From the UHGV virus genome UHGV-0240317: 64,000 nucleotides of DNA; one strand, given 5' to 3'. The translations under genes and the position numbers were made by a program. How positions within the stretch are numbered: position 1 is the stretch's first letter; each line of letters starts with the position of its first letter. This document shows positions 3,515 through 48,381 of the stretch, piece after piece. The notes under the pieces are model-generated. The model saw only the letters and a list, made by a program, of their open reading frames with translations. It was not told the DNA's origin and did not search any database. This DNA comes from a virus.

Positions 3515-3851
3515 GCTCCATGTCACAGTGTACAAAAACTTCTCAGACATCAAAGAGTCTTTAACAAATAAGCTTGACTTACAACGTAAAAGACTCTTTT
3601 TAATGTATGACATAGACAACTACGACCATCCTAAAGAGTTTAACTACAAAGATGGTACAAAGGTTGTTGAATTTGAAGATTCTGTAACAGTGTATGTCAA
3701 ACATGACTTACCAGCAAAGTACATAGGGATGTTAGAGTACTATATATTCAAACATACAGGTATGCGCGGTGAATCTGTCAAGATATCTTCTATAGAAGTT
3801 TTTGAGAAACCTAACACACAACTTAAAAAGTATTTAATGAGGAAACTGTAA
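3507..3851 (+). CDS. hypothetical protein
   Basis: ORF track; tight packing. Confidence 0.55.
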   Translation: MSKLHVTVYKNFSDIKESLTNKLDLQRKRLFLMYDIDNYDHPKEFNYKDGTKVVEFEDSVTVYVKHDLPAKYIGMLEYYIFKHTGMRGESVKISSIEVFEKPNTQLKKYLMRKL

Positions 3852-15275: not shown

Positions 15276-16061
15276 TTAGTTCTTTGCGTCTAAGAAGGTA
15301 ACTTCTGATGATGAGAAAATTTCTTCGATATCCTCATCAGTTCTTGCATAGATGTAGGTGTCTGCATCGTTACCAAATGTCACGGCAATTCTATGATTGC
15401 TCTTCGACAGGTGGGTAACTAGAGCGTTACTTAGAGACATCTTTTCAACCGGAGGGTTACTTTGATGTATCTTACCTTTTCTTCGTCTGAAGAGGGTAAC
15501 TTCATTATCTGCGAACACTGCTACACCTGCAAAGTATTCTGGTTCACAGTAGTTCTTCCAACCTGAGCGTAACTTATGGTACATCTCTCCTTCGTAGACA
15601 TATAGATAAACATCTACACTCTTCATTGCCTGATTGATAATAACTGTGACAGCTTGAGGGTCAAGTCCACCAATACCTGCACCAATCATAGGTAAACCAA
15701 CTTTCTTCAACTGATTAACTTCACAGTATCTGTTAAGCTGTTTCAAAGATGACTCTAAAGCACTGTATCGGGCATCTTTACCAGTCTTAAGCTGAGTGTA
15801 AAGGTTAGCTATACGACCTTGTTTTAAACGTGCTACAGAGAAATTACCCAGTAAATTTTCACAGGGTTTGTGTCCTATACCACCTGCATATAGATAAACT
15901 TCTGTATCGGTCTCATATGCTTTTGGGTAAAGTTTAGAAATCTTGTCAGCGATACCTGCACCCATTAAATTCATACAGTTGCAACCGTGACCGATGATGT
16001 CAAACTTACCTTTATCAAATGCGGCAAAGATATCACCATTGATTATTTTTACAATACCCAT
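15276..16061 (-). CDS. macrodomain protein (TARG1/DarG-like) with unknown C-terminal domain
   Basis: NGDIF..DIIGHGCNCMNLMGAGIA and GLPMIGAGIGGLD match TARG1-type macrodomain motifs as recalled. Confidence 0.7.
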   Translation of the reverse strand: MGIVKIINGDIFAAFDKGKFDIIGHGCNCMNLMGAGIADKISKLYPKAYETDTEVYLYAGGIGHKPCENLLGNFSVARLKQGRIANLYTQLKTGKDARYSALESSLKQLNRYCEVNQLKKVGLPMIGAGIGGLDPQAVTVIINQAMKSVDVYLYVYEGEMYHKLRSGWKNYCEPEYFAGVAVFADNEVTLFRRRKGKIHQSNPPVEKMSLSNALVTHLSKSNHRIAVTFGNDADTYIYARTDEDIEEIFSSSEVTFLDAKN

Positions 16062-23492: not shown

Positions 23493-23509
23493 AGTCTTCT
23501 CCAGAAATT

Positions 23510-23532
23510 AAAAAGGCTCCCGTAGGAGCCTC
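23510..23532 (-). terminator. rho-independent terminator
   Basis: GGCTCC-cgta-GGAGCC with T-run on the minus strand. Confidence 0.65.
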
Positions 23533-23545
23533 TTATCATATACTT

Positions 23546-25327
23546 TTAAAGCTGCTTGTCAATATTATTTCGAATATCACCAAGAGTTGTGTAGCCGAAC
23601 TGCTCAGAGTCGCTAAAGACTAGACGTAAAGCACAAGCTGGATGTTCAAGTGCATCTGCAAAGCTCTGGAACCCATAGCCATCTACAGCTTTCAGGTTTT
23701 CACCATCCCACATAGGTGCTACACCACCAAAAGCAGACTTCTTAACACCACTATCTGTTTTAGGGTCTTTTGCAAGCATAATCTCTTTACCACCAATGCT
23801 TGCAAGAGTTGCTTTAACAGCAAATGCAAAGGTGTCACGAGTCATGTACTGGTAAGTGTAAGAGCCTACGCCAAACACTACGTTAGAGCTTGCAAAACCC
23901 ATTTCATACAGACGCTTCAGGATTTCGTTTGCACGTTCCAGCGTGATAGAGTCGCCATAGATAAGGCCAATGTGCTCATCCAGTACCTTAAAACCTTTAG
24001 AGTTAATAGTTCCTCCAAAGATGTTATACAGTGTCTTGATAGCTCCATCAATCTCTGCTACAGGGCGTGTTACAACGTTTGCAGAACCAACCATATAAGC
24101 GTTCTTCAACATCACTGTATCAGCAACTTCAAAGTCTTCTCTGTCAACAACCATTTCGTAGCCTTCTGACAGTAGCCATCCAGCAATACCATAGTTGATG
24201 TTTTCAAGCTTCATGTTCAGAACAGCATTCAACATTGTGTCACTGGCTTCCAGCTTGCTTAGGTGCTCGTAATAAGCCTTCTTAGCACATTCTAAGTGGA
24301 TTGCTTTATAACCTGTGACAATATGTACAGGGTCTCCAGAGTCAGGACGAATTACCAGTTTGCCATCACGTTCCATAATTTCTTTACGAAGTGCTGGTAA
24401 AATTTCTGACACAGTTCTCCAGAAGTTATAAGTGTCTGAAACAACACTTGCAATACCAGTTGTGTAAGTTTCTGTTAAGAAACGACGGAAGGTTTGTAAC
24501 TCACCTTTAAAGCGTCTTTCATCTTCAATCAATTCATTACCACCCTCCCAAGCAATGTTTGCACACATTACAGAGTGTTCAGTGGCTGGTACAGAACTGC
24601 CAATATCAGAGATTGGGTAAGACTGACCATAGATTCGTTTAGCCGTATACACAGCAGGGAAGCTATCAGTTCCTTTAAAGCTGGTTAAGTGGCCTACAGC
24701 ATTAAATGCGTCATCAGTAAAGCCGGACATACCACGCATAGCAAAGTCATGGCACTGATAAGGCAAATGTAAGTCGTTGTCACAAGTAAGGTCAGCCCAC
24801 TTCTTACAGATACGTTTGTAGTGCAATGCAATAGTTGCAATGGTACAAGCCTTCCAAATCTCAGCAGAGAAAGCATCTTCCAGATAACCTGCTACCCAAT
24901 GGAAACCTGAAACAGTGTTCTGAAAAACAATCATCGGAACACGCATAGGGACAACCGTGCCTTCTTCTACAGCGTATACTTCAACTGGTAGATAACCTAA
25001 GTCGTGAAGTGCTTCCCAATGCTCTCGACCGATAGCATCTTTACCCAGAACACCATTCATGACTTCTAAGATTTCGTCAATTGCTTCTTTTTTATCACGT
25101 TCAAAGAAGGTGGCATTCCAATGGTCTATCAAGTAATCTTTAACGAAACGTTGAATACCAAAAGCCACTACACCATCAATTACTAAGGGGCTGTTAAACC
25201 ACTTATCACTACGTGGTGTCAGGTTCAACATAAGATATTGCGTAGCATCTGGATACTGATATATATGTGATGCCTTGTAAGCATCTGCATTAAGACCTGC
25301 TGGTACTGCATAAAGTGATTTAGTCAT
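23546..25327 (-). CDS. nicotinamide phosphoribosyltransferase family protein (NadV/NAMPT-like)
   Basis: aligns with human NAMPT at DSYK, FKGTD, SVPAxEHS, SVVSDxY, IRPDSG(D/N)P. Confidence 0.85.
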   Translation of the reverse strand: MTKSLYAVPAGLNADAYKASHIYQYPDATQYLMLNLTPRSDKWFNSPLVIDGVVAFGIQRFVKDYLIDHWNATFFERDKKEAIDEILEVMNGVLGKDAIGREHWEALHDLGYLPVEVYAVEEGTVVPMRVPMIVFQNTVSGFHWVAGYLEDAFSAEIWKACTIATIALHYKRICKKWADLTCDNDLHLPYQCHDFAMRGMSGFTDDAFNAVGHLTSFKGTDSFPAVYTAKRIYGQSYPISDIGSSVPATEHSVMCANIAWEGGNELIEDERRFKGELQTFRRFLTETYTTGIASVVSDTYNFWRTVSEILPALRKEIMERDGKLVIRPDSGDPVHIVTGYKAIHLECAKKAYYEHLSKLEASDTMLNAVLNMKLENINYGIAGWLLSEGYEMVVDREDFEVADTVMLKNAYMVGSANVVTRPVAEIDGAIKTLYNIFGGTINSKGFKVLDEHIGLIYGDSITLERANEILKRLYEMGFASSNVVFGVGSYTYQYMTRDTFAFAVKATLASIGGKEIMLAKDPKTDSGVKKSAFGGVAPMWDGENLKAVDGYGFQSFADALEHPACALRLVFSDSEQFGYTTLGDIRNNIDKQL

Positions 25328-25372
25328 CTTTTAATCTCTCTCAAAATGGGGCTTTCAAGCCCCTATAAACTT

Positions 25373-26254
25373 TCAATCAAGGTTTGCTACAGTAACTTGA
25401 CCATAATGTGTTAAGCCACGGTCTTTAGCTTCGCCTAAAGAGTTTGTAGTGTAAATATGGTCGATACCGTTGTCAAGAAGGTTTTCAACACCTTTAGAGA
25501 AGATACCATGTGTTACATAAAGCTCAACACGTTTTGCACCTGCTTCACGTAGGTGTTTAGCTGCCTCTACGAAGGTTCGACCACCATCACAGATATCATC
25601 AAGAATCATGACGGTTTTATCGGTCAAATCAACATCGTCAAGGATTCGCATACCAGTGATTTCTCCAGTCTTAAGATTTCGCACCTTAGACATTGTGATA
25701 TATGGTTTATCCACCTCTTTAGCAGTCTCTGCAATCTTCTTAGAAGCACCTGCATCTGGGGCTACTAAGTAATCAATTAGAGGGTCATTTGCATAGTGGA
25801 CTGCAATCTCCTTTTGAGGAATACTTTGGAAGCAGTTAAACAGGTTATCTGGTACATAACTGTGAGGGTCAACTGCACAGACTGCACCAAATCCCATTGC
25901 ATTTACCTGTTTAGCAAAAACCTTTAAAGCTGCTGCGTCGCCTTTAAACATGTGACGGTCATATCGTGCATTTGGTAAGTAGTAAAAGATGACAGTCTTC
26001 ATGGCATAATCATGAGGAACTAAATCATCAATTGCTTCTTTAGCAAGTGCCACAGCAAACAATGTGTCTTTGTCATAACCCTTTACAATCATAACCACAT
26101 TGTTAATAGATGATGCTGCATAAGCAGTAAAATCAACAAGCTCTTGTGAAAAGTGTCCACCAATCTCACCAGAAGGAAATTGGATAATGTTAAACTCTTC
26201 TTCATGAGTTCCTTTAGTTGGTGAATGAACTGTAACACGGATAGATGTTTTCAT
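25373..26254 (-). CDS. ribose-phosphate pyrophosphokinase family protein (PRPP synthetase-like)
   Basis: ILDDICDGGRTFVEAAKHLREAGAKRV matches the Prs PRPP-binding loop. Confidence 0.8.
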   Translation of the reverse strand: MKTSIRVTVHSPTKGTHEEEFNIIQFPSGEIGGHFSQELVDFTAYAASSINNVVMIVKGYDKDTLFAVALAKEAIDDLVPHDYAMKTVIFYYLPNARYDRHMFKGDAAALKVFAKQVNAMGFGAVCAVDPHSYVPDNLFNCFQSIPQKEIAVHYANDPLIDYLVAPDAGASKKIAETAKEVDKPYITMSKVRNLKTGEITGMRILDDVDLTDKTVMILDDICDGGRTFVEAAKHLREAGAKRVELYVTHGIFSKGVENLLDNGIDHIYTTNSLGEAKDRGLTHYGQVTVANLD

Positions 26255-26383
26255 AGTTTTCTCTCTCTCTCAATCAAAGGTTACGTTTGTTACTGATATT
26301 GCAGCAGAACGTTTTAGGTTTGACAGATACATATCATCTCCAAAATAAAAAGGGAACCTTTACAGTTCCCCTATAGTATCTGT

Positions 26384-28807: not shown

Positions 28808-29755
28808 TTACATAGAAACCCTATCCTTAATTTCTGCCATCTTAGCGTCATTCATTCGAGACTGACCTTTAATTTTTGTGAATGACAAGTACCCGCACAC
28901 CCTGTTAATCACAGAGATATCGTGTGAATGGCAAACCTCACACTCTTCAACATCAGCCTTTGGTCTGTTACCACAATGTTCACAGATTGCTAAGTCAAAG
29001 TTAAGTCCCTGATAGAAACCTTTCAACATCCCTCTTGTAATACAACTTTTAAGTGCTGATAAGTTTTCTGGATTAGCTACCCTTACATACTGGATTCTGC
29101 CGCCTCTACAGATATGGAAGAAGGGTTCTTCTAAGTCCTGCTTCTCAAATGGTGAGATGTTTGCTGCAACATTCATATGGAAACTGTTTGTGAAGTATTC
29201 CTTGTCAGAAACACCTTTAATAATCCCAAACATCTCTCTGAACTGTTTTAGCTGAGTTCCGCAAAGTGATTCTGCTGGAGTACCATAGACGGCATATAAG
29301 AAGCCATCTTCATTTTTAAACTCTTCGGTTTTCATGTTGATGTATGCCAGAACATCATATGCAAAGCTATAGTTTCCAACTTCATGAAGTCGTTTACCTT
29401 CAGCAAGAACAGACAACTCATCAAGCGCAGTAACACCAAAAGAAGCTGTGAAGGACTTCACAATATCCCAACCAACCTTGTCAGTAGGCTTCTTAGTTCC
29501 TTTGTACAGACCACCTTGTGTAAATGCAAGAGGGTTAGAACTTGCTGGCATATTAGCAATCATTTCATAGCGTTTCTTGTGGAAACTACGAATCATCTCT
29601 AGGTACTTATCAAGCTCTTTCCAGAAATCTAAACCATTCTCTTTAGAGTACTGGTAAATCATCGGTAAGTTCAAAGATACAGCACCAATGTTTGCACGAC
29701 CTACATAAAACTCTTCACCATATTCGTTATGGTATGGTGATAAAAATGCTCTACA
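28808..29755 (-). CDS. nrdD: anaerobic ribonucleoside-triphosphate reductase, exon 2
   Basis: begins CRAFLSPY..., matching T4 NrdD ...SPMG|CRSFL; C-terminal Zn site CEHCG..CEVC and glycyl-radical RVCGYL. Confidence 0.85.
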   Translation of the reverse strand, partial: CRAFLSPYHNEYGEEFYVGRANIGAVSLNLPMIYQYSKENGLDFWKELDKYLEMIRSFHKKRYEMIANMPASSNPLAFTQGGLYKGTKKPTDKVGWDIVKSFTASFGVTALDELSVLAEGKRLHEVGNYSFAYDVLAYINMKTEEFKNEDGFLYAVYGTPAESLCGTQLKQFREMFGIIKGVSDKEYFTNSFHMNVAANISPFEKQDLEEPFFHICRGGRIQYVRVANPENLSALKSCITRGMLKGFYQGLNFDLAICEHCGNRPKADVEECEVCHSHDISVINRVCGYLSFTKIKGQSRMNDAKMAEIKDRVSM

Positions 29756-30497
29756 CTTGTTGTTCAGGTAAGTTCGCTAAGCTTACCCCGCTTTATTCAA
29801 GCTGCTTACTGTCGCCAGTAAGTCCAGACTATATCTTCTACTTATTTCTAAGTAGCGTACCATTTCGAGTCGCTTGACCCTACACCGCTACATTCATCAC
29901 GGTTAGTCGTTCGGCATTTAGATGTATTCAAACTCATATTCGAAGTTATTATGCTCTTTTACACCCTTCAATATTGAAGAGATGGTCTTGCGATTGTGTC
30001 CAAGTATATTGGATAACTCTCGTATTGACTTAGTAACAATAACTTCCTTTGTCACTTTGTGTGTGGCTTTCACGGCATATGAACGCTTGTGGAACTTGTA
30101 GCACCCGTTCTCATAACCCTCTTTAGCATTCTCAGAATGAGTACCCCATTCTAAGTTGGATGCGTGGTTATTTAGTTTGTTATCGTCCTTATGTTTTACA
30201 ATTGGAAGATTATTTGGGTTAGGTACATATTTCTCAGCAACTAACCTGTGGACATACATGTCACGATTCTTCTTACCGTAAAACCTCACTTTCATATACC
30301 CAGTGTTGGATTTCCACTGCGTAAGCTCTACACCATTTTCCCTAAAGACTTTTCTATCTTCAGTGACGTGATAGTTTGGCATGTAAGACTCCTATGTTGT
30401 ATAGTTTCTTACATCGTACATCATTTAGCACAGGATTGTCTACATCTGTAGAGTTTCCCTGTTTAGGCACGTTTTAGATGAGCTATAGAGCTTGTTA
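29756..30497 (-). mobile_element. group I intron in nrdD carrying an HNH endonuclease ORF
   Basis: exon 1 ends with U, intron ends with G, S-like element GAAGATATAGTCTGG; boundaries inferred. Confidence 0.75.
29918..30382 (-). CDS. intron-encoded HNH homing endonuclease
   Basis: HRLVAEKYVPNPNNLPIVKHKDDNKLNNHASNLEWGTHSEN HNH motif. Confidence 0.85.
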   Translation of the reverse strand: MPNYHVTEDRKVFRENGVELTQWKSNTGYMKVRFYGKKNRDMYVHRLVAEKYVPNPNNLPIVKHKDDNKLNNHASNLEWGTHSENAKEGYENGCYKFHKRSYAVKATHKVTKEVIVTKSIRELSNILGHNRKTISSILKGVKEHNNFEYEFEYI

Positions 30498-36183: not shown

Positions 36184-36508
36184 GGTATTTCTCCAAGTTT
36201 CTTTTTAGATATAACCAACCATAGTCAGTTCTTTCTACACCCATGAAGAGTGGAGCCATTACAACTTTACCAAAAGTATTCCTGTGTTGACAGATTTCAA
36301 AAGAATACTCTTTCTCAATATCAATCCCGTATTTGTACAGGACTGCTTTTAAAACTTGTTCATTATCCAGAAGTGTATCTGGAGTCTCACCATACTTCTC
36401 AAGTAACGGGTCATTCATAAACACCGTCATAGAGATATTGTAGTTTGAGAAGTGGCTCTTCTGAGACACACCTTCTTTATTAATGTTCTGTGAATCCATT
36501 ATAACCAA
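36176..36508 (-). CDS. hypothetical protein
   Basis: ORF track. Confidence 0.55.
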   Translation of the reverse strand: MVIMDSQNINKEGVSQKSHFSNYNISMTVFMNDPLLEKYGETPDTLLDNEQVLKAVLYKYGIDIEKEYSFEICQHRNTFGKVVMAPLFMGVERTDYGWLYLKRNLEKYRA

Positions 36509-37235
36509 CCCCTTTTAACCAGCACTTCAGGTTATTAGCATCATAATTCAGTTTCGGGTATGAGGTTACATGGAACTGCTCACCATCATAGTAGACAATA
36601 TCTGCAATCCATAGTCCATTCTCTTTACAGAAGTCTTTATCTGCTTTAGAGGTAATTGGATTAACTTCTACAAAACCATCTACACCCAAATCCTTTAAGC
36701 TACATACAATACCTTTGCAGATAACGCATGTGTCAGATACTACCACAAAAAGTTCTTGGCTTTCAAGTTCTACAATGTATTCACCAAGCTGAACTTTAGG
36801 GAGATTAGATTGCTTCATAATCTTCCCATCGGCTGCGCGAACAATTGCATACCACTCTTTACCATCAACTACTGACATTCTGATGATACACTCTTGACCA
36901 GTACGCTTCTCAATATCTGCAAGACGTTTTAAAGCTTCTTCATAGTCGTCTGTGTACTTCAGGTCATTATTATGGCAAACGGCTTCCATAGCGCCATTGT
37001 GGTCATGCTGTGACAGGTAAATCAAACCGTCAAGAACATATTGCAAATCTGCCTGAGCATCCAATGTCTCAATGGGGTCTTTCTCTTCAATTGCTTTTAC
37101 AAGCTCTTTTGCTTCTTCAAGCATACACAGAGATTGAGATTTCAAAGATTCCCAATACTCATTACTGTAGGGTTGCTTTTGAGTGTTTCCACAACGAAGG
37201 TTCCAGTTTTTTACTGATTCTCTTGAGTTAAACAT
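36480..37235 (-). CDS. hypothetical protein, possible MazG-like N-terminal region
   Basis: EEAKELVKAIEEKD...DLQYVL weakly MazG-like. Confidence 0.4.
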   Translation of the reverse strand: MFNSRESVKNWNLRCGNTQKQPYSNEYWESLKSQSLCMLEEAKELVKAIEEKDPIETLDAQADLQYVLDGLIYLSQHDHNGAMEAVCHNNDLKYTDDYEEALKRLADIEKRTGQECIIRMSVVDGKEWYAIVRAADGKIMKQSNLPKVQLGEYIVELESQELFVVVSDTCVICKGIVCSLKDLGVDGFVEVNPITSKADKDFCKENGLWIADIVYYDGEQFHVTSYPKLNYDANNLKCWLKGVGYNGFTEH

Positions 37236-44619: not shown

Positions 44620-44876
44620 GTAAGCCTCTTTTAAGTAACTATTAAGTTTTAATCTTTTATCTTAACGTATTCTATACGTTATACTTTAAAGCTTTTTAAA
44701 AGCTATTAAATAATCTTTTAAGAGTTTTAAAGTATCTGTATAGTTAAACTGTTAAGTAACCTTTTAAGTAAAAACCCACTTCGCAAAGATTAACACCTTG
44801 TCAAGTGCATTGTCAACTTGCTTTTTATAATTTTTTGCAGTAATGTATGAGGTTAATGATTTTAGAGGGAGTAAAA

Positions 44877-47019
44877 ATGGAAAACGTAGATTTTAAAAAC
44901 TTACATTTAGTTGGTGATACAGAAACTGATGGTTTACTCCTTGAGTTCACTAAAGTGCACGTAATGGCTTTCGCAGACTATAAATCTGACGATGAAGAGC
45001 CACCTGTATGGGTCTTTACAGATGAGCCTATCCTCGGTCACAAGTATACCAAGTACATTAAGGGTGGCTTACGTGAAGGTGTTGAATTTGCGTTAAAGGC
45101 AAAACGTCTTTGCATCCATAATGGTCTCGGTTATGACTGGTGGGTTTTTAATCACATTGCACCTGATTTATGGAACTTTGATAATCCAAAGTGTAAACCG
45201 TGGAGTAATTTCTTTCAGGATTCTCTTATCCAGTCTCGTGTTCAGTGGATGGATAGACCAACCCCAAAAGGTTATAAGGGTGCTCATGGCTTGGCTGCAT
45301 GGGGTGCTCGTGTTGGTGTCCGTAAACCAGAGATTGAACATTGGGGTGTGTGGAATGCAGAAATCTTCACTCGTGTTGTAGAAGATATCCGTATTAACGC
45401 CAAAACTAAACGGGCACTTGATAATGAATATCTCAAGCTTAAGAAGTGTGGCATAGATACTTATGAAACCTACATGCGAGCTAAAGAAACATCTTTTTGG
45501 ATGAGTCAACAAGCTATCAATGGCTGGAAAGCTGATAAAGAGCTTATGGAGTTCCATGTAAAGGAACTTGACAAGTTGACTAATGAGCTTGCTTCAGAGG
45601 TTGAACCACATCTACCTCCAACTATTAAGACCAAAGGTAAAGTCACTGGAGAAGAGTTTGCAAAAGCTTGGAATGAGTATGTTGAAACATTTGGTCATGC
45701 AGATGGACTGAAGAGAATTACCAAGTACCCTAAGACAAAGTATCGTCAGCAGGTACGTAATGGTGAGATGCAGACTTATGAAATCAAACCATTTGGTAAG
45801 CCAACTACAAAGATTTTTAACATTGAAAAGAGAAATTGCTATACACCAACCAACTCTGTAACTGGTGAAGAGTACAAGGAAGGTTTTGTAGCAATGAAGG
45901 ATGCTCGTGCAATTTGCAATGAGTTGAATGCAAAGATTGGTAAGAAATGCAAAGACTGGAAGCCAGCAAAAACAGTTAAGACTGTGAAGTACTATAACAG
46001 CCATGTTGTTAACCACTTTGAGCTTGAGTCAAGTCGCTACACAGGTTTGATTGATGCACCATATACACCAATCGAGTTCGAAGTTTCTCGTATGACTCAG
46101 GTAGCAGTTGTTAAAGACTACTTGAAATCAGTTGGTTGGATTCCAGATGACTGGAACTATAAGAAAGACTCTGATGGTCGTCCTGTTAAGGTTTGTCGCT
46201 TCAAAGACAACAAAAAGATGATTACAAAGCATCCTAAATGGCAGGAAATGGTTGAACGGTGTGGTTTGAGCTATGTTGAACATGAAGGCGTCCAGTACAT
46301 TGAGCATAACTGGTCTGTGAAGAAATACACAGATTTGCTTGAGCCTTGCTTAATCCGTACTTCACCAAAACTTACTGAATCATCTTATGATACGATTGAA
46401 GGTGAGCTTGGACAGAAGATTGCTAAGTACTATACTTTGATGCACCGACGCAGAACTATTGAGAACTCAAAGGATGATGAGAAAGGTTGGTTAAACCAGA
46501 TTCGTCCTGATGGTCGCCTTAGTGCTGGTGCAATGGTGTTTGGTACTTCAACTGGACGTATGACACAATATGGTATTGTAAACGTACCGTCTGGTGCTGC
46601 TGTCTATGGAGCACCTATGAGGGAGGTGTGGATTTGTGAAGAGGGGACTAACATTGTTTCTGTTGACCAGAACTCAGCCCAGCTTGTTTTACTGTGTAAC
46701 TTTATGGGTGATAAAGACTTCACCAAAGCAGTAACTGAAGGTAAAGAGTCAGTAGAGTTCACTAAGCAAGATGATGGTAGATACTACTGTAAACATCTTG
46801 ACAAGTATCTTAACCCAGAAACTGACAAGTATCTGCGTTATGATGCTGAAAATGACCTCTATGAAGTCTACACAGGGACTGATGCGCATACACTGAACAG
46901 TATTTACTTTGGTCTTAACAAGGAAGAAGATATTGTCCGTTGTAGGGAGACACAGGGTGAGGAACTTCTCCACGAGATTACAAAAGGTCGTAAGAAAGCC
47001 AAAAATGGCATTTATGCGT
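44877..47019 (+). CDS. DNA polymerase family A, exon 1
   Basis: start at MENVDF with GAGGGAG RBS; exo I DTETDGL; motif A VSVDQNSAQL; first half of motif B RKKAKNGIYA. Confidence 0.85.
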
Positions 47020-47287
47020 CAGTGGCGCATGTAAAACGTTGTGAATTGCTGGAAGCCTAAGTCTGTAAAGATATGGTAATCAGCAGCGAAGCCTCTTGAG
47101 AGGAACGTTCAGAGACTATCGAAAAGCATACTTAATGTATGAACTGAGTAGAGTAGGGTGGTAAGCTAATGACCATACCCAAGTGCAACGGTAGCATCAC
47201 TGCTACGTGATATAGTCCGACACTCCGTAGAAATGCGGAGAAGTTCATAAGAGAACTGGTACACCTTGCGAGTGTATTGACCAGATG
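47020..47287 (+). mobile_element. ORF-less group I intron in the DNA polymerase gene
   Basis: Q-like AATCAGCAG, R-like GTTCAGAGACTA, S-like GATATAGTCC; stops in the polymerase frame; boundaries inferred. Confidence 0.75.
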
Positions 47288-47844
47288 TATTGTTCGGTGC
47301 AGGTGATGAGAAGTTTGCCAAAACCATTAAGGCAGCTTCTACAGAGGAAGGTGCATTGACTAAGCAGACCTACTATATGCGTCTACCAAAGATTAAGAAA
47401 CTACTTGATAGCTTAGAAGCCGATTTTAAGGCGTCTAAAAAGGCTCTGGAAGAGGTTTTTGGGAAGAATTCTTCAATTGCTAAAGGTGGTTATATCAGAG
47501 TCGCTGGAGCATGGATATGGTGCAAATCTCCACATAAACTACTGAACTACCTCCTGATGAGTTCGGAAGCACAGATTCAGAATGAGGCCATCAACCTAGC
47601 AGCAAGAAAAGCCTGTGAAGATGGCCTGACAAAACTGAATGCTCGAAAACCAGCTATCGGAGCAAGGTTACTTCTGGCATATCACGATGAAAATAGTTGG
47701 GAATGTCCAGAGGGTATGACACAGGATATGAAAGCAATTGCTGACTGGATGTATGGACAAGCTTCAAAAAACTTAGGTTTGAGGAAAGAAACACTTGTAA
47801 CTGGTACAGCAAAGGTTGGTAAGAGCTGGTATGAGGTGCATTGA
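47288..47844 (+). CDS. DNA polymerase family A, exon 2
   Basis: continues motif B as LFGAGDEK (T7 pol FLYGAGDEK); carries the C-terminal polymerase domain. Confidence 0.8.
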
Positions 47845-48381
47845 TTGATGGATTTTATTTCACAAAAACGTTTAAAGGAGCTACTACACTATGACCCCGA
47901 AACAGGGGTCTTTACTTGGCTTCGTAGAGAAGGTAAATCAAGAGCTGTTAGTGTTTTTAACAGTAACTATGCAGGAAAGGTAGCAGGTAATGTTCAGACA
48001 GATTCAACTGGTCATAAACAGATTAGTATCTATTTTGACAAGAAAGCACATAAAGCACACAGACTCGCATGGCTTTATGTATATGGCAAGATGCCAAAAG
48101 GTATCATTGACCATATCAACGGAGACTCTCTTGACAACAGGATTGCAAACTTAAGGGAAGCAGATGACTTCCAAAGTGCTTGGAATAAAGGTAAACTAGC
48201 CACCAATAAATCTGGGTACAAGGGTGTAAGCCTTAAGAAGAAGTCTGGTAAGTGGGTCGCACAGATAAGTTATAAAGGTAAGAAGATGTTTTTAGGTTAC
48301 CATGACACCCCTGAAGAAGCCCATAAAGCTTACTGTGAAGCTGCTATGAAACTCCACGGAGAGTTTGCAAAACTAAGTTGA
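47845..48381 (+). CDS. HNH-AP2 homing endonuclease (free-standing)
   Basis: HNH motif HRLAWLYVYG..IDHINGDSLDNRIANL plus AP2-like YKGVS..KWVAQI..GYHDTPEEA. Confidence 0.85.
   Translation: MMDFISQKRLKELLHYDPETGVFTWLRREGKSRAVSVFNSNYAGKVAGNVQTDSTGHKQISIYFDKKAHKAHRLAWLYVYGKMPKGIIDHINGDSLDNRIANLREADDFQSAWNKGKLATNKSGYKGVSLKKKSGKWVAQISYKGKKMFLGYHDTPEEAHKAYCEAAMKLHGEFAKLS

What the first reader, a model, noticed from the sequence alone, without database searches (positions are those of the whole stretch)
23546..26254. Adjacent NAMPT-like and PRPP-synthetase-like genes: probable NAD+ reconstitution module countering NAD-depleting defences
A 593 aa NAMPT-family protein and a 293 aa PRPP-synthetase-family protein are encoded back to back. 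This pairing is known in Felix O1-like and other large phages. Recent work as I recall it shows such pairs (an ADPR-pyrophosphate synthetase plus a nicotinamide ADPR transferase) rebuild NAD+ from ADP-ribose and nicotinamide to overcome NAD+-depleting immunity. I cannot tell by eye whether these are the canonical salvage enzymes or the ADPR-specific variants. No NMNAT-like gene is nearby.
Basis: partly seen in the sequence, partly recalled or inferred. Interest (0 to 1): 0.55.

Follow-up and report, generated by a model that had tools for sequence, protein, structure and literature searches.

The report
Known phage NAD+ rebuilding operon (NARP1)
These two adjacent genes are the Felix O1-type phage copy of NARP1, an already characterised two-enzyme pathway that rebuilds NAD+ from the fragments left by NAD+-destroying bacterial defences, so the finding is real and correctly read but not new.

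Summary
A 293-aa Prs-like ORF (25373-26254, minus) lies 45 nt upstream of a 593-aa NAMPT-like ORF (23546-25327, minus). Terminator-like hairpins bracket the pair.

The window is a Felixounavirus. NARP1 was discovered in a phage of this genus, Bas63 (genes 79-80). The window's proteins have the same lengths and spacing as those genes and are 79% (Adps) and 97% (Namat) identical to them.

- Namat carries the adenine-clamp signature (GSYTYQYMTRD, K42-W43) and the catalytic Arg327. Its best sequence and fold matches are the solved SpβL1 Namat.
- The Prs-like protein keeps the Adps catalytic Lys, the acceptor residues and the DDICDG loop, and lacks the Prs C-terminal module.
- No NMNAT, in-operon Macro or RyR gene is present, so this is plain two-gene NARP1.

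Verdict: already known, low interest.

Three side observations came up:
- Namat carries an ~88-residue, confidently folded subdomain with no structural relative.
- The Adps N-terminal domain occurs as two discrete alleles in these phages.
- A conserved Adpp-like Macro-domain gene (15276-16061) lies 7.5 kb downstream, outside the range published surveys scanned.

The parts
25373..26254 (-). adps: ADP-ribose pyrophosphate synthetase (Prs-like), 293 aa, first gene of the operon
   Evidence: ORF. It is 79% identical to Bas63_0079 over all 293 aa without gaps and 99% identical to the warpig homolog. ICP1 Adps functional residues are conserved: K185->K190, R87->R97, H121->H131, D161->D167, D212/213/216->D219/220/223, and the PP loop DDICDG is identical. 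The Prs C-terminal a11-a12 helix region is absent. Scores against the eight Prs-named NCBIfam equivalog models are 43-104 bits, against cutoffs of 296-536.
25715..26254 (-). Adps N-terminal-domain allele (codons 1-180), diverged from the Bas63 allele
   Evidence: Nucleotide identity to Bas63 is 56-84% here, against 90-96% in the rest of adps. Identity to warpig here is 94-100%. There are 58 nonsynonymous and 55 synonymous codon differences from Bas63 in 180 codons. tblastn shows two discrete classes, >=90% (156 records) and 60-80% (97 records), with none at 80-90%.
25348..25363 (-). Small hairpin GGGGCT-TGAA-AGCCCC in the 45-nt adps-namat spacer, followed by ATTTTG and a GAGAGA ribosome-binding-like stretch before the namat ATG
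   Evidence: Read directly from the sequence. Its function is not tested. In some relatives a ~470-bp segment annotated as an HNH endonuclease gene interrupts the match to the operon.
23546..25327 (-). namat: nicotinamide ADP-ribose transferase (NAMPT-like), 593 aa, second gene of the operon
   Evidence: ORF. It is 97% identical to Bas63_0080. The best PDB sequence hits are SpbL1 Namat 9w5w/9w5x at 429 bits, against 353 for H. ducreyi NadV and 146 for mammalian NAMPT. The AF2 model has pLDDT 93 and pTM 0.91, and its best fold match is 9w5x with target-normalised TM 0.95. In an NJ tree the three NARP2-type Nampts form one clade (100% bootstrap), apart from all Adps-linked Namats, the window's among them.
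25178..25216 (-). Namat selectivity-clamp loop (SCL), residues 38-50, TPRSDKWFNSPLV with K42-W43
   Evidence: alignment. The published rule is that the third residue is R, K or Y, and that when it is K or Y the next residue stacks on adenine, as in Bas63 (PMC12774641). The loop is identical to Bas63 except V49A.
23834..23866 (-). Namat selectivity-clamp helix motif (SCH), residues 488-498, GSYTYQYMTRD
   Evidence: [quoted passage not shown] NARP2-type Nampts have GGGLLQxxxRD instead. H. ducreyi NadV has GAQTYQRNTRD.
24047..24310 (-). Lineage-specific insertion subdomain of Namat (residues ~340-427), alpha/beta, function unknown
26350..26372 (-). Terminator-like hairpin upstream of adps, after the preceding DUF7390 gene
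   Evidence: 9-bp stem followed by TTTTATTTT. This is a consensus match only.
23511..23534 (-). Terminator-like hairpin immediately downstream of namat
   Evidence: 10-bp stem followed by a T-rich tail. Together with the upstream hairpin it brackets a two-gene unit.
15276..16061 (-). Unlinked Macro-domain 'putative phosphatase', 261 aa: a candidate Adpp-like accessory, not shown to belong to the pathway
   Evidence: Pfam Macro PF01661 at 32.3 bits (cutoff 22) over residues 25-141. It falls in the same PHROG (335) as the PAK_P4 operon-linked Macro phosphatase. Over whole-length alignments it is 31% identical to the Vibrio phage Chester in-operon phosphatase, 33% to the PAK_P4 protein and 38% to T4-like Tk.4. 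The BLASTP local alignment to PAK_P4 gives 30% identity, E=1e-21. A family profile hits OARD1 at E=3e-18 and yeast Poa1p at E=2e-10. Bas63 has the gene at the same position (bas63_0095).

Best explanation
The two genes form a plain two-gene NARP1 operon (NAD+ reconstitution pathway 1).

Many bacterial defences use SIR2, TIR or SEFIR domains to split NAD+ into ADP-ribose and nicotinamide. The first enzyme, Adps, is a hexameric Prs-like pyrophosphokinase. It transfers the beta-gamma pyrophosphate of ATP onto the 1'' hydroxyl of the distal ribose of ADP-ribose, giving ADPR-pyrophosphate and AMP. The second enzyme, Namat, is a NAMPT-fold transferase with an added adenine-binding clamp. It displaces that pyrophosphate with nicotinamide and yields NAD+ directly. 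No NMN intermediate, NMNAT or host salvage enzyme is needed.

The phage thereby keeps NAD+ available and escapes abortive infection by NAD+-depleting systems. The pathway makes product only when a defence has generated ADP-ribose.

Shown here: gene anatomy, orthology to the validated Bas63 operon, and conservation of the signature residues of both enzymes.

Inferred from published work on homologs: the two chemical reactions and the anti-defence phenotype.
For: (1) Orthology to the founding example. Bas63 genes 79-80 are 293 and 593 aa, 45 nt apart, in the same neighbourhood between nrdG and rIIA. The window's proteins are 79% and 97% identical to them without gaps. Deleting Bas63 79-80 sensitised the phage about 20-fold to SIR2-HerA and deepened NAD+ loss. 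Rescue did not need host pncC or nadR, and ADPR-PP appeared only with both the operon and the defence present.

(2) Namat signature. The SCH motif GSYTYQYMTRD and the SCL K42-W43 fit the published rule. R327 corresponds to SpbL1 R306. Sequence and fold searches both rank SpbL1 Namat first. The NARP2-type Nampts lack the motif, have no adjacent prs gene, and form their own clade (100% bootstrap), apart from all Adps-linked Namats.

(3) Adps signature. Catalytic Lys190, R97, H131, D167, D219, D220, D223, the DDICDG loop and F228 are conserved relative to the ICP1 Adps structure, and every mapped position is identical in Bas63. The C-terminal Prs module is missing. Identity is 32-35% to the ICP1, Chester and PAK_P4 Adps, against 23% to E. 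coli Prs.

(4) The gene order Adps then Namat recurs in five further phage loci from different host genera: Staphylococcus, Bacillus, Mycobacterium and Pseudomonas, plus two Vibrio phages.

(5) No NMNAT, NadR or PnuC is annotated in the neighbourhood or in the closest relative's genome.
Against: - Neither this phage's proteins nor Bas63's have been assayed in vitro. The Bas63 protein did not purify, so the biochemistry comes from the SpbL1, ICP1 and DyoEdafos homologs, which are 24-38% identical.
- The window's Adps N-terminal domain is a different allele from the tested Bas63 one, with 58 of 180 codons changed.
- Three ICP1 Adps contact residues do not align to aromatic residues here: the ADPR-adenine contacts F18 (H17) and F92 (M102, with F103 adjacent), and F223 of the ATP-adenine lid (E230). 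The three PP-loop residues after DDICDG also differ, GRT against AAS.
- Namat homologs retain PRPP-to-NMN activity in vitro, so some canonical salvage flux cannot be excluded.
Confidence: 0.93

Rival explanations
1. Canonical salvage booster. The Prs-like enzyme makes PRPP from ribose-5-phosphate, the NAMPT-like enzyme makes NMN from PRPP and nicotinamide, and host NadR or PncC-dependent routes finish NAD+ synthesis. This would be general metabolic support rather than ADPR recycling.
For: Database names and Pfam/NCBIfam hits say Prs and NAMPT. TIGR01251 passes its subfamily cutoff. [quoted passage not shown]
Against: In Bas63, rescue persisted in a pncC nadR double mutant, and ADPR-PP, not NMN, was the operon-dependent metabolite. 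SpbL1 Adps gave no product in the canonical Prs assay, and Namat made only NAD+ when both substrates were offered. The window's Namat has the adenine clamp that canonical Nampts lack. The Prs-named NCBIfam equivalog cutoffs are missed by about three-fold or more.
Confidence: 0.04
2. NARP2-type pathway. A PRPP-preferring phage Nampt works with a phage NMNAT, as in KVP40.
For: The NAMPT fold and family are shared.
Against: No NMNAT is found in the neighbourhood or in the closest relative's annotation. The NARP2-type proteins are only about 28% identical, carry GGGLLQ..RD instead of the Namat motif, have no adjacent prs gene, and form a separate clade. Osterman et al. found no phage that carries both pathways.
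Confidence: 0.01
3. Extended pathway with an unlinked phosphatase. This refines the best explanation and is not exclusive of it. The conserved Macro-domain protein at 15276-16061 would act as an ADPR-1''-phosphate phosphatase (Adpp). It would feed ADP-ribose into NARP1 and so also protect against RES-type (aRES) NAD+ phosphorylases, even though it is not part of the operon.
For: Macro domain above the Pfam cutoff. It is 31-33% identical to the in-operon phosphatases of Vibrio phage Chester and PAK_P4 and falls in the same PHROG. A family profile reaches Poa1p over its full length. It lies on the same strand, and Bas63 has the gene at the same position; close homologs occur in about 240 phage records. 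The published survey scanned only two genes either side of each operon.
Against: The family occurs in 2849 phage records, including T4-like phages that lack NARP1, and the T4-like Tk.4 is the closest of the three proteins compared, at 38%. OARD1/TARG1-type de-ADP-ribosylases score better than Poa1p. The gene is about 15 genes away and carries an extra ~105-aa C-terminal region of unknown function. No experimental data exist for Felix O1-like phages on aRES hosts.
Confidence: 0.2

Closest known systems
NARP1 operon of Escherichia phage JohannRWettstein (Bas63), genes bas63_0079 (Adps) and bas63_0080 (Namat); Osterman et al., bioRxiv 10.1101/2024.02.11.579819
   Same: Same genus (Felixounavirus), same gene order, identical protein lengths (293 and 593 aa), same 45-nt spacer and same flanking genes (nrdG side and rIIA side). 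Namat is 97% identical and Adps 79% identical. All mapped catalytic and specificity residues are identical.
   Different: The Adps N-terminal domain (residues 1-180) is a different allele, at 56-84% nucleotide identity. The window lacks the two small genes bas63_0077/0078 upstream of adps and bas63_0081 downstream of namat.
SpbL1 Namat (PDB 9W5W/9W5X) and SpbL1 Adps, the biochemically characterised NARP1 enzymes
   Same: Same fold (target-normalised TM 0.95). Same catalytic Arg, same SCH motif type and same clamp logic.
   Different: About 38% identity. The window's Namat has an extra ~88-residue subdomain and a ~15-residue insertion that SpbL1 lacks. The SCL uses K42-W43 instead of R40.
Vibrio phage ICP1 Adps (structures in PMC13586617)
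   Same: Catalytic Lys, acceptor residues, the DDICDG start of the PP loop and the loss of the C-terminal Prs module.
   Different: 32% identity. The PP-loop tail is GRT instead of AAS. The ADPR-adenine contacts F18 and F92 and the ATP-lid residue F223 are not matched by aromatic residues in the alignment.
NARP1-AP (Adps-Adpp-Namat, Vibrio phage Gary type; bioRxiv 10.64898/2026.01.28.702374)
   Same: Same two core enzymes. The genome also encodes a Macro-domain protein of the same family.
   Different: The Macro gene is not in or next to the operon. It lies 7.5 kb and about 15 genes downstream and has an added C-terminal region.
NARP2 (KVP40 NadV/Nampt plus NatV/NMNAT) and canonical NAMPT/NadV
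   Same: NAMPT fold and conserved catalytic core.
   Different: No NMNAT partner. The window's protein has the adenine clamp where these have GGGLLQ..RD (NARP2-type) or GAQTYQRNTRD (H. ducreyi NadV).

Membership tests
NARP1 (Adps + Namat) | Adps-family and Namat-family genes adjacent on the same strand | tested here: met
   45-nt spacer, both genes on the minus strand, Adps first. The same order is seen in Bas63, warpig and five other loci: ICP1, S25-3, Nigalana, AvadaKedavra and PAK_P4.
NARP1 (Adps + Namat) | [quoted passage not shown] | tested here: met
   G488-S-Y-T-Y-Q-Y-M-T-R-D498. The motif is absent from the three NARP2-type Nampts and from H. ducreyi NadV.
NARP1 (Adps + Namat) | Namat SCL supplies an adenine-stacking residue (third residue R, K or Y; if K or Y, the next residue stacks) | tested here: met
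   S40-D41-K42-W43, identical to Bas63, whose AlphaFold3 model was used to state the rule. The stacking itself is not observed here.
NARP1 (Adps + Namat) | Namat conserved catalytic core (SpbL1 R306 in IRPDSGD) | tested here: met
   R327 in VIRPDSGD.
NARP1 (Adps + Namat) | Namat is closer to characterised Namats than to Nampts | tested here: met
   429 bits to SpbL1 Namat, against 353 (HdNadV), 178 (Xcc Nampt) and 146 (mammalian NAMPT). Fold ranking is the same. The NARP2-type Nampts form a separate clade with 100% bootstrap.
NARP1 (Adps + Namat) | Adps catalytic lysine on the beta-hairpin (ICP1 K185 / SpbL1 K162) | tested here: met
   K190.
NARP1 (Adps + Namat) | Adps acceptor-site residues (ICP1 R87, H121, D161, D212, D213, D216) | tested here: met
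   R97, H131, D167, D219, D220, D223. These residues are also conserved in canonical Prs, so they show an active enzyme rather than specificity.
NARP1 (Adps + Namat) | Adps remodelled PP loop and donor site (ICP1 C215-S220, F221, F223) | tested here: inconclusive
   DDICDG and F228 are conserved. The next three residues are GRT rather than AAS, and F223 aligns to E230. Other Adps in the panel also vary here.
NARP1 (Adps + Namat) | Adps aromatic contacts to the ADPR adenine (ICP1 F18, F92) | tested here: inconclusive
   They align to H17 and M102, with F103 adjacent. The N-terminal alignment at 32% identity is not reliable enough to decide.
NARP1 (Adps + Namat) | Adps lacks the C-terminal a11-a12 module of Prs | tested here: met
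   293 aa against 315 aa. The region aligned to E. coli Prs ...AIRRISNEESISAMFEH is missing in the window and in all eight other phage Adps compared.
NARP1 (Adps + Namat) | Enzymatic activities (ADPR + ATP to ADPR-PP; ADPR-PP + nicotinamide to NAD+) and rescue from NAD+-depleting defence | not testable with these tools
   Shown in vivo for the 79%/97%-identical Bas63 operon and in vitro for the SpbL1, ICP1 and DyoEdafos homologs.
NARP1-AP (with Adpp phosphatase) | Macro-domain (PF01661/PF14519/PF20016) gene within two genes of the NARP1 operon | tested here: not met
   No Macro hit in 8 flanking ORFs at E<=1. The only Macro gene found is at 15276-16061, about 15 genes away.
RyDEP-associated NARP1 | RyR-domain (PF02026) gene inside the operon | tested here: not met
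   The spacer is only 45 nt, and no PF02026 hit appears among the neighbours.
NARP2 (Nampt + NMNAT) | PRPP-type Nampt (GGGLLQ..RD region) plus a phage NMNAT gene, with no Adps | tested here: not met
   The Namat motif is present and Adps is adjacent. No NMNAT is found in the neighbourhood or in the closest relative's annotation. About 22 kb of the genome lies outside the window.
NARP3 (PnuC-like transporter + NadR-like enzyme) | PnuC-like and NadR-like gene pair | tested here: not met
   Neither is annotated among the 145 features of the closest relative, warpig. This was judged from annotation only, not from a profile scan of every window ORF.
Canonical class I PRPP synthetase (Prs) | Reaches NCBIfam Prs equivalog cutoffs and has the full-length C-terminal regulatory/filament module | tested here: not met
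   Scores of 43-104 bits against the eight Prs-named equivalog models, whose cutoffs are 296-536. Only the broad TIGR01251 subfamily model passes, at 119.4 against 113. The C-terminal module is absent.

The most novel reading that the evidence does not exclude
Felix O1-like phages may run a dispersed, three-part version of the pathway. The conserved 261-aa Macro-domain protein 7.5 kb downstream (15276-16061) would be an unlinked Adpp that converts ADPR-1''-phosphate to ADP-ribose, so NARP1 would also defeat RES-type defences. Published surveys missed it because they looked only two genes either side of each operon.

In addition, the ~88-residue Namat subdomain with no structural relative could be a regulatory or partner-binding module specific to this lineage.
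Probability: 0.2. Interest if true: 0.4.

Novelty: already known. Interest (0 to 1): 0.15.

Why it matters
NARP1 is a general phage counter-defence: it rebuilds NAD+ from the products of SIR2, TIR and SEFIR NADases. Identifying it correctly matters for annotation, because all 258 related records that carry any annotation still label these genes as Prs and NAMPT. It also matters for choosing therapeutic phages likely to escape NAD+-depleting immunity.

For this window it adds nothing new, because the pathway was discovered in a phage of the same genus.

Three modest leads could add to the published picture:
- whether the unlinked Macro-domain protein extends the pathway against aRES;
- what the Namat insertion subdomain does;
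- why the Adps N-terminal domain exists as two discrete alleles.

Tried and rejected
- Accessory genes next to the operon (Macro/Adpp, RyR/RyDEP): Pfam at E<=1 on 8 flanking ORFs found none. It found only DUF7390, NrdG and weak noise.
- NARP2 and NARP3 partners: none in the Bas63 neighbourhood or in the warpig genome annotation.
- Insertion unique to Felix O1-like phages: rejected. A shorter version is present in PAK_P4, and long forms reach about 42% identity in Ounavirinae-like phages.
- Macro protein specifically tied to NARP1: weakened. The family is present in 2849 phage records, including T4-like phages without NARP1.
- Promoter scan: 13 sigma-70-like sites against 10.8 expected, so it is uninformative.
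- Rfam and tRNA scans found nothing within the finding. The only hit is a group I intron elsewhere, and no tRNAs were found.
- A guessed accession for Bas63 (MZ501111) turned out to be another BASEL phage. One literature query failed on syntax.
- The NJ support values were printed after re-rooting. Only the clade of the three NARP2-type Nampts (100%) is relied on.
Full report
**Observation.** ORF 25373-26254 encodes 293 aa and ORF 23546-25327 encodes 593 aa, with 45 nt between them and the shorter gene transcribed first.

The 593-aa protein matches NCBIfam PRK09198 at 468.5 bits, Pfam NAPRTase plus NAMPT_N, and PHROG 448 at E=6e-201. The 293-aa protein matches TIGR01251 (ribose-phosphate diphosphokinase subfamily) at 119.4 bits and PHROG 619 at E=6.5e-98.

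The pair is bracketed by terminator-like hairpins at 26372-26350 and 23534-23511. The spacer holds a small hairpin, GGGGCT-TGAA-AGCCCC.

**What the window is.** The 2.7-kb segment matches 258 phage records, almost all Felix O1-like. The best is Escherichia phage warpig at 96.2% identity over the full length. The flanking genes (rIIA/rIIB on one side, NrdG/NrdD on the other) are syntenic with annotated Felixounavirus genomes. The window is therefore part of a Felixounavirus genome.

**What is already published.** NARP1 was discovered in this genus. Osterman et al. noticed the Prs-like and NAMPT-like pair in four BASEL phages and deleted genes 79-80 of Bas63 (JohannRWettstein).
- The mutant plated about 20-fold worse on SIR2-HerA cells, and NAD+ depletion was deeper.
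- Rescue persisted in a pncC nadR double mutant.
- ADPR-pyrophosphate appeared only when both the operon and the defence were present.
- With the SpβL1 homologs they showed ADPR + ATP gives ADPR-PP (Adps), and ADPR-PP + nicotinamide gives NAD+ (Namat). Namat preferred ADPR-PP over PRPP.
- The pathway counters type I Thoeris, DSR1, DSR2, SIR2-HerA and SEFIR.
- It is found in 4.3% of sequenced phages.

Later papers gave a Namat structure and specificity rule (PMC12774641) and an Adps structure from phage ICP1 (PMC13586617). They also described two operon extensions: a Macro-domain ADPR-1''-phosphate phosphatase, Adpp (NARP1-AP), and a RyR-domain glycosidase, RyDEP.

**Orthology.** Bas63_0079 and 0080 are 293 and 593 aa with the same 45-nt spacing. 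The window's Namat is 97% identical to Bas63_0080 and its Adps is 79% identical to Bas63_0079, both without gaps.

[quoted passage not shown] It also requires a variable loop whose third residue is R, K or Y.
- The window has G488-SYTYQYM-TRD498 and K42-W43, the latter identical to Bas63.
- R327 corresponds to the essential SpβL1 R306.
- Three NARP2-type phage Nampts (Vibrio D480, Klebsiella KMI9, Aeromonas Riv-10) have GGGLLQ..RD instead. They have no adjacent prs gene and form their own clade (100% bootstrap), apart from all Adps-linked Namats.
- H. ducreyi NadV, a closer genuine Nampt, has Q and R at the two stacking positions.
- PDB sequence search ranks SpβL1 Namat first: 429 bits, against 353 for HdNadV and 146 for mammalian NAMPT.
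- An AlphaFold2 model (pLDDT 93, pTM 0.91) also has SpβL1 Namat as its best fold match, with target-normalised TM 0.95.

**Adps membership.** Mapping the ICP1 Adps functional residues gives K185→K190 (catalytic), R87→R97, H121→H131, D161→D167 and D212/D213/D216→D219/D220/D223. The DDICDG start of the PP loop is identical, and F221 maps to F228. Every mapped position is the same in Bas63.
- The C-terminal α11-α12 module of Prs, whose loss the authors call a family signature, is absent.
- Identity is 32-35% to the ICP1, Chester and PAK_P4 Adps, against 23% to E. coli Prs.
- The Prs-named NCBIfam equivalog cutoffs are missed by about three-fold or more.
- Not conserved in the alignment are the ADPR-adenine contacts F18 and F92, the ATP-lid residue F223, and the three residues after DDICDG. 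At this identity the N-terminal alignment is unreliable, so I rate those features inconclusive.

**Which variant.** No Macro or RyR domain occurs in the eight flanking ORFs. No NMNAT, NadR or PnuC gene is annotated in the Bas63 neighbourhood or in the whole warpig genome. This is plain two-gene NARP1, not NARP1-AP, NARP2 or NARP3.

**Mechanism.** The mechanism follows from the above. Orthology and signature residues are shown here. The chemistry and the phenotype are inferred from homologs. Defence NADases split NAD+ into ADP-ribose and nicotinamide. Adps pyrophosphorylates the distal ribose of ADP-ribose using ATP. Namat then replaces the pyrophosphate with nicotinamide and regenerates NAD+ without NMN or host salvage enzymes.

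**Caveats.**
- The proteins of this genus have never been assayed in vitro.
- The window's Adps N-terminal domain is a different allele from the one tested genetically.
- Namat homologs retain some PRPP-to-NMN activity.

**Side observations.**
1. The first 540 nt of adps are 56-84% identical to Bas63 but 94-100% identical to warpig, while the rest of adps is 90-96% identical to Bas63. Across phages the N-terminal domain falls into two discrete classes, ≥90% (156 records) and 60-80% (97 records), with none between. This is a recombination mosaic. All mapped functional residues are shared.
3. A 261-aa ORF at 15276-16061, on the same strand about 15 genes downstream, has a Macro domain above the Pfam cutoff.
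   - It shares a PHROG with the PAK_P4 operon-linked Macro phosphatase.
   - Over whole-length alignments it is 31% identical to the Chester in-operon phosphatase, 33% to the PAK_P4 protein and 38% to T4-like Tk.4.
   - A family profile reaches OARD1 (E=3e-18) and Poa1p (E=2e-10).
   - Bas63 has the gene at the same position.
   - The published Adpp survey looked only two genes either side of each operon, so this gene would not have been counted.
   - The family is in 2849 phage records, including T4-likes without NARP1. A specific link to NARP1 is therefore only a hypothesis, which I put at about 0.2.

**Verdict.** It is an already known system in the very genus where it was discovered. Interest is low (0.15). 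The only residual novelty lies in the three side observations.

Noticed in passing
window 15276-16061 (-): A 261-aa 'putative phosphatase' with a Macro domain (PF01661, 32.3 bits). It is homologous (31-33% identity) to the Adpp-type phosphatases embedded in the NARP1 operons of Vibrio phage Chester and PAK_P4, and it has an extra ~105-aa C-terminal region with no family hit. Bas63 has the gene at the same position (bas63_0095). It lies outside the two-gene range scanned by the published NARP1-AP survey.
   Followed up: partly
[not shown]
   Followed up: yes
window 25715-26254 (-), Adps codons 1-180: Recombination mosaic: this half of adps is 56-84% identical to Bas63 but 94-100% identical to warpig. 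Phage records fall into two discrete allele classes, >=90% and 60-80%, with none between.
   Followed up: yes
window 46957-47240 (+): Rfam group I intron (RF00028, 62.3 bits, E=2e-13). It lies between ORFs 44847-47060 and 47290-47844, which correspond to the split DNA polymerase of relatives. An ORF at 47845-48381 follows, at the position of the relatives' HNH endonuclease gene.
   Followed up: partly
window 28808-30382 (-): The anaerobic ribonucleotide reductase gene nrdD appears split, as in Bas63 where it is annotated as a two-piece join around a homing endonuclease. A 288-aa C-terminal piece (28808-29674) is followed by a 154-aa endonuclease-like ORF (29918-30382). Rfam reported no intron here.
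   Followed up: no
window 25328-25372 (spacer), compared with relatives: In Felix O1, VpaE1, ULIM3 and other relatives the match to the operon is split by a ~470-bp segment annotated as an HNH endonuclease gene. The window has only the 45-nt spacer with a small hairpin.
   Followed up: no
window 26255-26383 and 23493-23545: The window lacks homologs of the two small genes that Bas63 (0077/0078) and warpig (39/40) carry just upstream of adps. It also lacks bas63_0081 downstream of namat.
   Followed up: partly
L004 (Vibrio phage ICP1 isolate 2016_Dha_A) 3576-3578 and the SCH motif: The Namat reading frame of this ICP1 isolate has an in-frame stop at the position of a conserved Tyr near the N-terminus, and the annotated ORF restarts at a GTG downstream. 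Its motif reads TCD instead of TRD. The gene may be decaying in this isolate.
   Followed up: no
window 36480-37235 (-): A 251-aa protein with a MazG-like phosphoribosyl-ATP pyrophosphohydrolase domain (PF01503, 26.6 bits). It is another nucleotide-pyrophosphate enzyme of unknown role in this phage.
   Followed up: no
proteins P0069, P0073, P0091, P0106 and others: Chromosomal enterobacterial homologs (Klebsiella, Cronobacter, Kosakonia, Phytobacter; 496 aa; 45-47% identity; contigs of 4-6 Mb) carry the Namat-type motif GSFTYQYNTRD. This fits the published note that some bacteria encode NARP1-like pairs.
   Followed up: partly
window 1-64000: No tRNA genes were detected, although the relative warpig carries a cluster of about 20 tRNAs. 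That cluster must lie in the ~22 kb of genome outside this window.
   Followed up: no
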